A stretch of DNA of 7,056 nucleotides from a virus. Lineage: Duplodnaviria; Heunggongvirae; Uroviricota; Caudoviricetes. The DNA lies in the IMG/VR virus record IMGVR_UViG_2609459844_000004, positions 1-7,056 of that record; one strand, given 5' to 3'. How positions within the stretch are numbered: position 1 is the stretch's first letter; each line of letters opens with the position of its first letter. Shown piece after piece: positions 1-3,000 of the stretch. A program made the position numbers.

Positions 1-3000
1 GAAATCCGTCTTCATATTGTTTGCGATGTCCCTGATGAACTTATTGATTTCACGTTTGAATGGAAAGGACTGAAGAAATTATGCGTGGCAGTCTCCTTTC
101 GGTCAATAATAGCAGAACAAAAGAAAGAGCCAGAAATGACGGTCAGATATTATATCAGTTCTGCTGATTTAACCGCAGAAAAGTTCGCCACAGCAATCCG
201 AAACCACTGGCACGTGGAGAATAAGCTGCACTGGCGTCTGGACGTGGTAATGAATGAAGACGACTGCAAAATAAGAAGAGGAAACGCCGCAGAATTATTT
301 TCAGGGATACGGCACATCGCTATTAATATTTTGACGAATGATAAGGTATTCAAGGCAGGGTTAAGACGTAAGATGCGAAAAGTGTGGGGTAGTGATCAAT
401 TCTGGGCGGAGTTCGTGCAGCCTGGTAGACCCTGCAAGCCTTGTGTGGCGCGGGGTATGGTGATTTAGTGTGATTCTGGGCGGATTTGTGAGAAATGACC
501 AAAAACGCTTTTTTTTGCGCTTTTTTCTGGGCGCTTTTGATCTGGTTCTGCTACAAACTTAACGGGTTTTAAATGCTTTTAAAAAAGTGTTTTATCCTTA
601 CCCGTTTTCCTCAATTTGTTCTCATCTGTTGTGTTCGGTTTTGTTGTGGTTATTGCTGATTAGCTAACAGCACACGCCCCGCCAAAACGAGGCGCTTATG
701 CTGATTTCTTGTTTACAGGCTTAGTTTCTTGCTCCGGTGTGACGGGAACGCGATCACCTGGTGTTCCAGCACAGAAAATGGCTTTGGCGCGGCGCAAAAT
801 CTCTTTGTCATTTTCCTCATCGCCAGCTAATGCCATGCAAACAGCGTCTTTAAGCGATTGCCTGATGTTCAGGCTTTGAATGGCCTTCCTTTGCTCCTCA
901 AGTTCGCTATCGGCTTGCTTAGTTTGCCTGGTGGGTTGCTGTAGGCGTTCCAAGATTCCTTTAATGCCCATATCGCATATTGCACTTATCAGTTGTTCCT
1001 TATCTTCTGTGGACGCTCTTTTCAATAACTCGTTAACTAGCTCGTTTGTAATATCGGGAGAAGGCTGCGCTGTTTGATTTGATAGAGAACCTCCTTTGGC
1101 GGTGGGTTCCTCACCATAAGCGAGCCAATTTAAGCTCACTTGTTCTTTATCTGAGATAAGACAAGCTATTTTAAAAGAAGGCTCTGTTCCTTTATGAATG
1201 TAGTTGTTTAAGGTTGAAGGGGGGATTCCCCAATCACTCGCAGCAGTTCTGACACTACGGTTACCTATCAGCTTTACTAAACGCTCTCTGAAACTTTCTT
1301 TTCCCTGGTCGACAAAAGAAAAAGCATCATCATTTCTAGTCATTTTTTCTTTCCTCTATAACTGATTGATTTTAATTACAAAAACCATATAAAGACCAAA
1401 ATCAAAAAGAAAATACAAAGAAAGAGCTATTTTTGCTTTACATGGGCTACATATGGATCAATACTTGTATCCGAAGGGATAACACGGCGGTGTTATCCGC
1501 ACGGATAACTTTTAAGGGTAACCTAATGATGGTTAGAAATGAAGTAATGAACAAAGACTGGCACCGCGAGTACATCGTTGCCGCTGTGCACACCAAAGGT
1601 TTTACATTGCGTGAACTTTCTGAACGCGCTGGTCTAAAAAAAGACTCTTTAAAAAATGCACTGTATCGCTCATGCCCTAAATATGAACGCATCATAGCCG
1701 ATGCTATTGGTGTGGAACCTGCGGAGATCTGGCCAAGCCGGTATGCCAGTAAGGCGGCGTAATGTTTTATTCAGCCAATGAGCTGGCCGGTCTTCCTGGT
1801 TTGCCCGGTACAGTTCAGGGGGTGCGCTGGACGCTCAATCGGATCACAGAGACGCACCCAGAATGGAAGCGCAAGCGCGAAGGCACCAAAGCATTCGAGT
1901 ATCACATCGACTGCCTGCCCGCTGAAGCGCAGAAAGTTTTACGTAAGCGCCTGACTCATCAGGTCCTGGAAGATGCACAACTGCCCGCCGTAGTTGAGCA
2001 GAAAGCAGTTAAAAACGTCGCCGTTCGCGATGAACTGGAGGTGATGGTCAAATGCCCGGAGCTGGCATTACGCGAAGTCCAGTCACTGACCGACAAGCAA
2101 AAGGCCATCGCTGATGCGCGGATAAGCGATTTTTTTGACGCTGTTACGTCCCCTTTAAAGACCATTAACAGCGTGATTAAAAAAATCCAGACTGTGCGTG
2201 CCACGCTGGTAAATACCCTGCTGACGTTCAAAAGTGATTCATTCTCCACAGTCGATAATGTTGTGTCACTGGCCAGCGAACCCGGAAAGTTTATCGGCGG
2301 GCTGGCAGAGGTGCTGGAAATCCACACGTCAGATGTCGGGCACGCGGTGCCGGTTCTGGCGCGTACTGATTCCGCCACCACGACCGGGCTGACCGGAGAA
2401 GACAGCGTCGCCAGTTCTGCGACCGTGATGACCTGCTGGAATGAGGTGATGGCAGATATGGATGAGCTGGTCGCGCTGCCGGTCGCACTGGTCAGCGGTG
2501 ATAAAACGCCGTCTGTGGCACTTCCGCCGGATGCGTCCGTGGAAGACGTGCAGGACGTGAAAGCGGCTTATGCGGTTCTGGCGGCCTCAGAGCTGGCCAG
2601 TGTGGCGACGGCAGTACTGTCCGATGAAGCCCAGTCAGAACAGCTTATACCGGCGGATATCGGGCGACTGGTCGGGGATGTGCGCACCCGCTTACAGGCA
2701 GCCATTACGCTGTTCCGTGAACGCTATGAAGGCGAACGCGAACGGATAACTGAAACCGCATCACCACTGGGGCTGATGTACCCGGAAATCATTCAGAGCA
2801 TGAAGAACGTGGCGGCATCCGTGCAGGATGTCGGCCTGCTGGTTCTGTCACGCCGCCCACCGCTGACGCAGAAACAGGTGCAGGCGGACAGCTGTCTGCT
2901 GTTGCTGGCGTGGCAGTGGTACGGCGATTACAGCCGTGCGGCAGAGCTGCAACGTCTGAACCCGCAGCTGCGTGACCCGAACAACATAACCGCCGGGATG

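What the first reader, a model, noticed from the sequence alone, without database searches (positions are those of the whole stretch)
380..550. Junction between the H-repeat/ISAs1 transposase gene and the prophage left end, with three direct ATTCTGGGCG repeats
Transposase homology appears to stop near nt 382 (after ...GLRRKMRK) and the ORF then runs through sequence containing the first of three direct repeats (399-410, 473-484, 525-534), followed by T-rich GCGCTTTT units. Three similarly oriented ~20-bp repeats within ~150 bp of the end, just outside the repressor gene, is the architecture of transposase-binding sites (L1-L3) at a Mu-type left end, and the new sequence begins with TGT as Mu ends do. 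This suggests the Mu-like element transposed into the 3' end of an IS transposase gene. The alternative is that the repeats are IS subterminal structure and the IS is intact.
Basis: partly seen in the sequence, partly recalled or inferred. Interest (0 to 1): 0.5.

Follow-up and report, generated by a model that had tools for sequence, protein, structure and literature searches.

The report
Mu-like prophage end inside an IS
A degraded Mu-type transposable prophage jumped into the tail of an ISAs1 transposase gene, and the three repeats are almost certainly its left-end transposase-binding sites; this is ordinary biology, except that this phage family duplicates 4 bp of target DNA where Mu duplicates 5.

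Summary
Identity to ISAs1/ISEc1 transposase genes (5238 of 5426 complete E. coli genomes) stops exactly at nt 382. From nt 383 (TGTGGGG...) the sequence is the left end of a Mu-like prophage found at many unrelated chromosomal sites in 60 E. coli genomes.

The rest of the IS gene resumes after the prophage right end (...GTTACA), 97 nt beyond the window, in the source contig. The junctions carry a 4-bp target duplication (AAAG), not 5 bp.

The core TTCTGGGC lies at element positions 18, 92 and 143 on the left. On the right, read inward, it lies at 18 and 40, with an inverted copy at 68. Mu has the same layout (L1 terminal, L2 and L3 spaced, R1 and R2 contiguous at 22 bp, R3 inverted) with a different recognition sequence.

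Relatives in Serratia, Pantoea and Sodalis keep the terminus and all three registers while the spacers diverge.

The window copy is a 6.8-kb remnant. Its transposase gene is truncated and no transposition ATPase (Mu B-type) gene remains, so the ends are relics. This is a new member of a known kind and of low interest. The 4-bp duplication, confirmed on empty sites, is the most notable by-product.

The parts
1..382 (+). 3' part of an ISAs1/ISEc1 (H-repeat) transposase gene, cut 56 nt before its stop codon.
   Evidence: 97-100% identical over 1-382 to annotated ISAs1 family transposase genes in 5238 E. coli genomes. It carries PF01609 DDE_Tnp_1. An intact copy continues for 18 more codons.
85..468 (+). 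Chimeric ORF: the IS transposase C-terminal part reads through into the phage end, giving 28 foreign codons before a TAG.
   Evidence: It is a by-product of the insertion, not a gene in its own right.
379..382 (.). Left copy of the 4-bp target-site duplication AAAG. The right copy follows the right end, beyond the window.
   Evidence: One search shows ...GTTACA|AAAG|CAGCTATGG. The intact target reads GCGAAAAGCAGC.
383..389 (+). Prophage left terminus TGTGGGG, beginning with the 5'-TG of a TG...CA element.
   Evidence: Homology in six independent insertions starts at this base. The heptamer is invariant in the nine aligned left ends (three E. coli copies plus Serratia, Pantoea and Sodalis relatives), whose flanks are unrelated.
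388..409 (+). Inferred transposase-binding site L1 (element nt 6-27; core TTCTGGGC at 400-407).
   Evidence: The core starts at nt 18 from the terminus at both the left and right ends. Its register equals Mu L1/R1 at 6-27.
462..483 (+). Inferred site L2 (element nt 80-101; core at 474-481).
   Evidence: The block is conserved in the family alignment.
513..534 (+). Inferred site L3 (element nt 131-152; core at 525-532). Its upstream half is the T-rich GCGCTTTTTT unit.
   Evidence: It is the same type as R1 (GCGTTTTTTTCTGGGC). The block is conserved.
696..1343 (-). Repressor (c-like) gene of the prophage.
   Evidence: PF07022 Phage_CI_repr. It sits in the same position as in the intact relatives.
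1526..1762 (+). Ner-like early regulator gene.
   Evidence: PF13693 HTH_35, E = 9e-26.
1762..3024 (+). Fusion ORF: about the first 121 residues of the Mu-type transposase joined to the C-terminal part of the DNA circularization (tail) protein. The deletion joint is at 2116-2124, with 9 nt of overlap.
   Evidence: BLAST map against the E2348/69 prophage. Only PF02316 HTH_Tnp_Mu_1 is left. Homology to the intact prophages breaks at window 2124.

Best explanation
Window 383-~534 is the left attachment end (attL) of a Mu-type transposable prophage that transposed into an ISAs1/ISEc1 transposase gene, 56 nt before its stop codon, and duplicated 4 bp of target (AAAG).

The three direct repeats are the L1, L2 and L3 binding sites for the phage's DDE transposase. 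With three matching sites at the right end (R1 and R2 inverted relative to the left end, R3 flipped), they would assemble the transpososome. That complex cuts at the terminal TG/CA and joins the ends to target DNA with a 4-bp stagger.

Shown here:
- the exact junction;
- both ends and the split IS;
- the 4-bp duplication;
- the layout of the repeats and its conservation.

Inferred: that the transposase binds these repeats.

In this copy the transposase gene is truncated and no B-type ATPase gene remains. The element is a fixed 6.8-kb remnant whose ends no longer function unless a related helper phage supplies the proteins.
For: **Junction.** IS identity ends at 382 in 5238 genomes (alignment).

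**Element boundary.** Sixty E. coli genomes match from exactly nt 383, at different loci. Six insertions were examined at base level.

**Right end and rest of the IS.** The source contig reads ...AGCCCAGAAAAAAACGCGAAGTTACA|AAAG|CAGCTATGGACAG..., followed by the same yafV-ivy neighbours that flank the uninterrupted IS in strain 120899.

**Target duplication.** The six insertions have AAAG, CACT, TATC, GAGA, TTTG and GACA. Empty sites rebuilt with one 4-bp copy removed match uninfected genomes 236/236 without gaps.

**Repeats.**
- In intact 35-kb prophages, 6 of the 7 copies of TTCTGGGC lie within 150 nt of the termini, where about one copy per 35 kb is expected by chance.
- They sit at L 18/92/143 and, read inward, R 18/40 plus an inverted copy at 68.
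- Mu has L1 at 6-27, L3 at 151-172, R1 at 6-27, R2 at 28-49 and R3 inverted at 56-77.
- The 17 end mismatches between the window copy and E2348/69 all fall outside the cores.

**Conservation across relatives.**
- Relatives with 45-61% identical transposases keep TGTGGGG and the three cores at the same registers.
- Their spacers diverge.
- A G-to-A change (TTCTGGAC) appears in all three sites of those relatives in which the cores are intact.
- A second lineage (Sp18-like, 44% identity) has the same layout with a different core, TTGATAC.

**Genes.** The order is c, ner, then a transposase with HTH_Tnp_Mu_1, rve and Mu-transpos_C domains, then an AAA ATPase, in the intact relatives.
Against: - No binding or transposition experiment exists for this family in what I could search.
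- The repeats do not match Mu's 22-bp consensus, and the transposase is only 21% identical to MuA. The assignment therefore rests on architecture and conservation.
- R3 lies at 66-87 rather than Mu's 56-77, and L2/L3 spacing differs from Mu's.
- A 4-bp duplication departs from Mu (5 bp) and B3 (6 bp).
- Part of L3 also scores as a weak terminator-like hairpin.
Confidence: 0.9

Rival explanations
1. The repeats are subterminal structure of the ISAs1 element, and the IS is intact.
For: The ORF runs on without a stop until 468.
Against: No ISAs1 copy in 5238 genomes extends past 382 with this sequence. The intact IS continues CAGCTATGG..., and that continuation is found 6.77 kb downstream, after the prophage right end. 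The repeats travel with the prophage to non-IS loci.
Confidence: 0.01
2. The three repeats are a chance or low-complexity coincidence with no function.
For: With one mismatch allowed, the whole-window count is not significant: 4 observed against 1.6 expected.
Against: An exact triple cluster arose in 1 of 1000 shuffles. The same core is mirrored at the right end at the same distance from the terminus. The cores are the most conserved blocks across genera.
Confidence: 0.02
3. The repeats are functional but serve another protein or process, such as packaging (pac) recognition, a host bending protein, or termination of repressor or read-in transcripts, rather than transposase binding.
For: In Mu, pac lies within the left end (my own knowledge, not tested here). 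Terminator-like hairpins overlap 501-534 on both strands. A conserved AAATG/A-rich block between L2 and L3 is unexplained.
Against: A pac site or a terminator would not need copies at both ends, at an identical register from both termini, with a 22-bp R1-R2 spacing like Mu's. The concerted G-to-A change in all three sites fits one sequence-specific binder. The hairpins are weak, with 3-4 G-C pairs.
Confidence: 0.06

Closest known systems
Bacteriophage Mu ends (attL L1-L3, attR R1-R3)
   Same: The termini are TG...CA. There are three sites per end. The terminal site occupies nt 6-27 at both ends. R1 and R2 are contiguous with 22-bp spacing. R3 is inverted. L2 and L3 are set apart from L1. The gene order c, ner, A, B lies next to the left end.
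   Different: The recognition sequence is different: TTCTGGGC core against Mu's ...CGAAAA, with no match to the Mu consensus. The transposase is only 21% identical to MuA. The repressor is of the CI-HTH type. The duplication is 4 bp, not 5. L2 and L3 are at 80-101 and 131-152, against about 111-132 and 151-172 in Mu.
Mu-like prophage of E. coli E2348/69 (in eutC), relatives in other E. coli, and probably one of the three C. rodentium Mu-like prophages
   Same: This is the same family. It is 98.6-99.1% identical to window 383-2124, with identical ends and cores. Prophage proteins with C. rodentium-range accessions (WP_0129046xx) occur in the E. coli relatives. The C. rodentium Mu-like prophages CRP28, CRP49 and CRP99 were shown to transpose (PMC3072379), but which of the three is the relative was not checked.
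   Different: Those prophages are intact, 35-36 kb. The window copy is a 6771-bp remnant with at least two internal deletions and a different tail-fibre module.
Sp18-like Mu-like phages of STEC (e.g. Mu_JNE082796 inside an Stx2c phage, LC727881)
   Same: It is a transposable prophage with a 44% identical transposase. It has three cores per end, with the terminal core at the same register at both ends and a 22-bp R1-R2 spacing. Its 4-bp duplication is annotated by the depositors and confirmed here on empty sites, 237/237.
   Different: Its core is TTGATAC. All three right-end copies are in one orientation. Its right terminus reads ...TA rather than ...CA.
B3 / D3112-type transposable phages of Pseudomonas
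   Same: The DDE transposase is about 31% identical over 93% of its length, which is closer than MuA. They are also transposable phages.
   Different: B3 is reported to make a 6-bp duplication (PMC8705779). I did not compare their ends.

Membership tests
Mu-type transposable phage end (attL) | The element ends with 5'-TG...CA-3', and the boundary is the same at independent insertion sites. | tested here: met
   TGTGGGG...GTTACA in six insertions with unrelated flanks. Right-end matches stop at the terminal A. The one exception, F163, has an adjacent phnJ-phnK deletion.
Mu-type transposable phage end (attL) | Short target-site duplication flanking the element, at essentially random loci (5 bp in Mu). 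| tested here: met
   A duplication is present at all six sites, but it is 4 bp, not 5. Empty sites confirm this. The feature is met in kind and differs in length.
Mu-type transposable phage end (attL) | Three repeated sites at each end: L1 terminal with L2 and L3 internal; R1 and R2 contiguous and inverted relative to the left end; R3 in the opposite orientation. | tested here: met
   Cores at L 18/92/143 and R 18/40 plus an inverted copy at 68. Mu was scanned the same way.
Mu-type transposable phage end (attL) | The sites match Mu's 22-bp MuA-binding consensus. | tested here: not met
   No window of 22 nt reaches 14 of 20 at either end. The element is therefore not a Mu/D108 end by sequence, only Mu-like by architecture.
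Mu-type transposable phage end (attL) | The transposase physically binds the repeats and cleaves at the terminal CA. | not testable with these tools
   This needs footprinting or in vitro transposition.
Mu-type transposable phage end (attL) | An adjacent early region encodes a repressor, Ner, a DDE transposase with Mu-type N- and C-terminal domains, and a B-type ATPase. | tested here: met
   Intact relatives have c, an HTH_35 Ner, a transposase with PF02316, PF00665 (E = 7e-5, 23.4 bits, below Pfam's 32.6-bit cut-off) and PF09299, and an AAA ATPase. In the window the transposase is cut at about residue 121 and the ATPase gene is absent.
ISAs1 family insertion sequence (ISEc1 / H-repeat), window 1-382 | Near-identity to annotated ISAs1/ISEc1 transposase genes, and a DDE_Tnp_1 domain. 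| tested here: met
   97-100% identity in thousands of genomes. PF01609 is present.
ISAs1 family insertion sequence (ISEc1 / H-repeat), window 1-382 | The IS copy is complete, with an intact transposase 3' end and right terminus contiguous with the gene. | tested here: not met
   The last 56 nt of the gene and the IS right end lie 6.77 kb away, beyond the prophage. IS terminal inverted repeats were not located.

The most novel reading that the evidence does not exclude
This enterobacterial lineage of Mu-like transposable phages, together with the Sp18-like lineage, has a transpososome that cuts the target with a 4-bp stagger. Surveys use 5 bp (Mu) or 6 bp (B3) as the diagnostic scar. The lineage also uses its own end code: a TGTGGGG terminus plus TTCTGGRC sites in Mu's geometry. 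In addition, the window element is a natural 'mini-Mu-like' remnant with both ends intact, which a resident helper of the same family could mobilise.
Probability: 0.45. Interest if true: 0.4.

Novelty: new member of a known kind. Interest (0 to 1): 0.25.

Why it matters
For the genome in hand, it explains a chimeric ORF and a split IS gene, and it marks a 6.8-kb stretch as a dead Mu-like prophage rather than native sequence.

More generally, it gives exact ends and a candidate site code for a Mu-like family that is widespread in Enterobacterales. PGAP product names in the intact copies examined label the transposase and major head protein as Mu-type, but none of those records carried a feature marking the element's ends.

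It also shows that prophage finders that look for a 5- or 6-bp duplication would mis-set the boundaries of these elements by one base. The different stagger offers a natural comparison for how DDE transpososome geometry sets duplication length. None of this changes current understanding of transposable phages.

Tried and rejected
- **Junction scan in species-representative genomes.** An exact 23-nt junction pattern found nothing. No complete E. coli genome carries the junction either. The source was found instead through the fusion protein.
- **5-bp duplication with an element ending ...GTTAC.** This fits the window and E2348/69 by coincidence, because an A precedes the site. It is excluded by three insertions where C, C or G precedes and by the empty sites.
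- **Right-end match stopping one base early in strain F163.** It looked like counter-evidence but is a secondary deletion with no duplication.
- **TG...CA plus 5-bp reading for the Sp18-like phage.** I proposed it and rejected it. The 4-bp empty site matches 237/237, and only that reading puts L1 and R1 in register.
- **Ends of Pseudomonas phage VW-6B and Klebsiella phage ST405-OXA48phi1.1.** These have the closest transposases among sequenced phages, but their records are truncated at or inside the repressor gene, so they were uninformative.
- **Phage-collection DNA search.** It found only a 74% match in the ner region of Yersinia phages.
- **Rfam.** Nothing was found.
- **IS terminal inverted repeats.** A simple inverted-repeat search did not find them.
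- **Literature.** Searches found no paper stating a 4-bp duplication for Mu-like phages.

Full report
**Observation**

The window reads ...GATGCGAAAAG|TGTGGGGTAGTGATCAATTCTGGGCGG... across nt 382/383.
- ATTCTGGGCGGA is identical at 399-410 and 473-484.
- TTCTGGGCG recurs at 525-533.
- All three copies are on the + strand, with start-to-start spacing of 74 and 51 nt.
- It is the only 9-mer in the 7056-nt window that occurs three times in one orientation within 150 nt. Only 1 of 1000 dinucleotide-preserving shuffles produced any such cluster.
- The 'GCGCTTTT units' are a 12-nt tandem pair at 506-529, which is the upstream half of the third repeat.

**The junction**

Megablast of window 1-700 against 5426 complete E. 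coli genomes matched 5238 of them. The match always covered 1-382 (97-100% identity, annotated 'ISAs1 family transposase') and never went beyond.

An uninterrupted copy in strain 120899 continues ...GCGAAAAG|CAGCTATGGACAGAAAC... for 18 more codons to its stop. The genes yafV and ivy follow. So the IS gene is broken 56 nt before its end. ORF 85-468 is a chimera that reads into foreign DNA.

**What starts at 383**

Window 383-3100 matched 60 E. coli genomes. In the 20 best records listed, the match begins at exactly nt 383 and breaks at 2124. It lies at different chromosomal places, under features annotated as two HTH proteins and a 'Mu transposase C-terminal domain-containing protein'.

In E2348/69 the element is a 35.7-kb prophage that splits eutC. 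Its genes are a repressor, a Ner-like protein, a transposase, an AAA ATPase, Mor, lysis genes, terminase, a Mu gpT-type head protein and a contractile tail. Four further intact copies sit in scpC, between melR and melA, between trg and ydcA, and between yfcC and pta. The flanks are unrelated up to the base before TGTGGGG.

**The source and the right end**

The 420-aa fusion ORF (1762-3024) is on record in 15 contigs. One is GCA_000703525.1 JNPF01000006.1, of which the window is nt 2-7057.

There, 97 nt past the window end, the sequence reads ...AGCCCAGAAAAAAACGCGAAGTTACA|AAAG|CAGCTATGGACAGAAACTATC.... This is the prophage right end, then the missing tail of the IS gene, then yafV, ivy and an acyl-CoA dehydrogenase gene.

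The phage therefore inserted into the IS, not the reverse. All five contigs that extend across the left junction share the same IS flank, so this is one inherited event.

**Target duplication**

With TG...CA boundaries, the six insertions are flanked by AAAG, CACT, TATC, GAGA, TTTG and GACA. The base before the left copy is A, A, C, A, C and G, so a 5-bp reading fails.

Empty sites rebuilt by removing one 4-bp copy match uninfected E. coli 236/236 without gaps, in scpC and yfcC.

One right end (strain F163) lacks the final A. It abuts a phnJ-phnK deletion and has no duplication.

A review-style statement gives 5 bp for Mu and 6 bp for B3 as the diagnostic scar (PMC8705779). I found no paper stating 4 bp. 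GenBank LC727881 does annotate a 4-bp duplication for an Sp18-like Mu-like phage. I confirmed that on uninterrupted Stx2c phages, 237/237.

**Repeat architecture**

In each intact prophage the 8-mer TTCTGGGC occurs seven times, where about one copy per 35 kb is expected. Six of the seven lie within 150 nt of the termini.

| End | This element (start of the 8-nt core, from the terminus) | Mu (22-bp site span) |
|---|---|---|
| Left | 18, 92, 143, all forward | L1 6-27, L3 151-172 (L2 falls below the scan threshold) |
| Right, read inward | 18, 40 forward; 68 inverted | R1 6-27, R2 28-49, R3 56-77 inverted |

If the core is placed at positions 13-20 of a 22-nt site, this element has L1 at 6-27, L2 at 80-101, L3 at 131-152, R1 at 6-27, R2 at 28-49 and R3 at 66-87 inverted. 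The terminal-site register and the 22-bp R1-R2 step are identical to Mu's.

The six sites share ..T.GCG.T..A-TTCTGGGC-G, which suggests a second half-site. None resembles Mu's consensus.

**Conservation**

The window copy and E2348/69 differ at 6 positions in the left 160 nt and at 11 in the right 90 nt. None of these falls in a core.

A protein-guided scan of species-representative genomes found 40 relatives in Enterobacterales and Vibrionaceae. In Serratia (61% identical transposase), Pantoea and several Sodalis genomes (about 45%):
- the base 17 nt upstream of the first core is the start of TGTGGGG, preceded by unrelated DNA;
- three cores sit at the same registers, with spacing of 73-74 and 51-52 nt;
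- the spacers are largely diverged;
- wherever the cores are intact, they read TTCTGGAC at all three sites, a concerted G-to-A change.

Degenerate Sodalis copies show decayed cores. Klebsiella, Raoultella and Limnobaculum relatives carry three ATTTGATAC repeats instead, which is the Sp18-type core.

So the geometry is constant while the core sequence changes with the transposase lineage. That is the pattern expected of transposase-binding sites.

**The protein**

The full-length family transposase (680 aa) has HTH_Tnp_Mu_1, an rve-type DDE core and Mu-transpos_C. The rve hit is weak (E = 7e-5, below Pfam's curated cut-off).

| Compared with | Identity |
|---|---|
| MuA | 21% |
| D3112-like phages | about 31% |
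| Pseudomonas phage VW-6B (closest sequenced phage) | 49% |

**State of the window copy**

Against E2348/69 the element keeps:
- nt 1-1741 of the prophage;
- then, across a 9-nt overlap, the 3' part of the DNA circularization gene;
- then a gp48-like gene;
- then an unrelated tail-fibre module;
- then the last 87 nt of the prophage.

The total is 6771 bp. The transposase is cut at about residue 121, and there is no B-type ATPase gene. The ends are relics unless a helper acts in trans.

**Verdict**

- The IS-structure alternative is refuted.
- Transposase binding is inferred from layout and conservation, not shown.
- This is a new member of a known kind.
- The 4-bp stagger and the family-specific end code are modest but real additions.

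Noticed in passing
window 379-382, with L003:7155-7158; also L002, L011-L014 and LC727881 (L019/L020): This Mu-like family makes a 4-bp target duplication, where Mu makes 5 bp and B3 6 bp. The Sp18-like lineage (44% identical transposase) does too, and its right terminus reads ...TA instead of ...CA. 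The only prior record I found is a GenBank feature in LC727881.
   Followed up: yes
window 2116-2124 and about 3105: There are two internal deletion joints relative to the intact prophage. The first fuses transposase residues 1 to about 121 to the C-terminal part of the DNA circularization protein across 9 nt of microhomology, giving a 420-aa ORF that is on record in 15 contigs. The second removes the baseplate genes.
   Followed up: partly
window 3623-7056: The tail-fibre module has no nucleotide similarity to the E2348/69-type prophage. It comprises a 328-aa fibre, a 191-aa assembly protein and a 608-aa protein with a 'Prophage tail fibre N-terminal' domain and an uncharacterised C-terminal part. 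The E2348/69-type prophage instead has opposed tail-fibre assembly genes and a 30-codon remnant of a Gin/Hin-like invertase gene next to the right end (L002:36526-36618).
   Followed up: no
window 1467-1510: Two near-identical palindromes, (T)TATCCGAAGGGATAA and (T)TATCCGCACGGATAA, lie 26 nt apart between the repressor and ner genes. They are likely operators, and possibly the counterpart of Mu's operator/enhancer region. A Raoultella relative has CGGATAAC three times at 13-nt spacing in the analogous place.
   Followed up: no
window 491-497 (element nt 109-115) and 432-452 (element nt 50-70): Conserved blocks outside the three cores are unexplained. One is an AAATG in an A-rich stretch between L2 and L3. 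The other is a scattered A...CTT...TG.C..G pattern between L1 and L2, and the E. coli version (CCTGCAAGCCTTGTGTG) resembles Mu's L1-L2 spacer CTTGCAAGCCTGTAGTG. They may be a host bending-protein site or pac.
   Followed up: no
L002:17744 (element nt about 16,744, inside the DUF935 portal gene); same place in L011-L014: The single internal copy of TTCTGGGC in the intact prophages is conserved in position, near the middle of the genome. It is probably a coding coincidence. Mu's centre holds its strong gyrase site.
   Followed up: no
L036, L043, L046-L048, L050, L052, L053, L055-L057, L061 (Sodalis genomes): Sodalis symbiont assemblies carry many copies of this Mu-like family. Some have intact ends. 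Others have decayed termini and cores (TGTAGGG, TTCTAAAC). This suggests a past burst of transposition followed by decay.
   Followed up: no
L017:2461-2470 and L016:320-335 (E. coli F163): A prophage of this family has a deletion that removes its terminal A and host DNA from phnJ into the next ABC-ATPase gene. This is an example of a rearrangement adjacent to a Mu-type end.
   Followed up: partly
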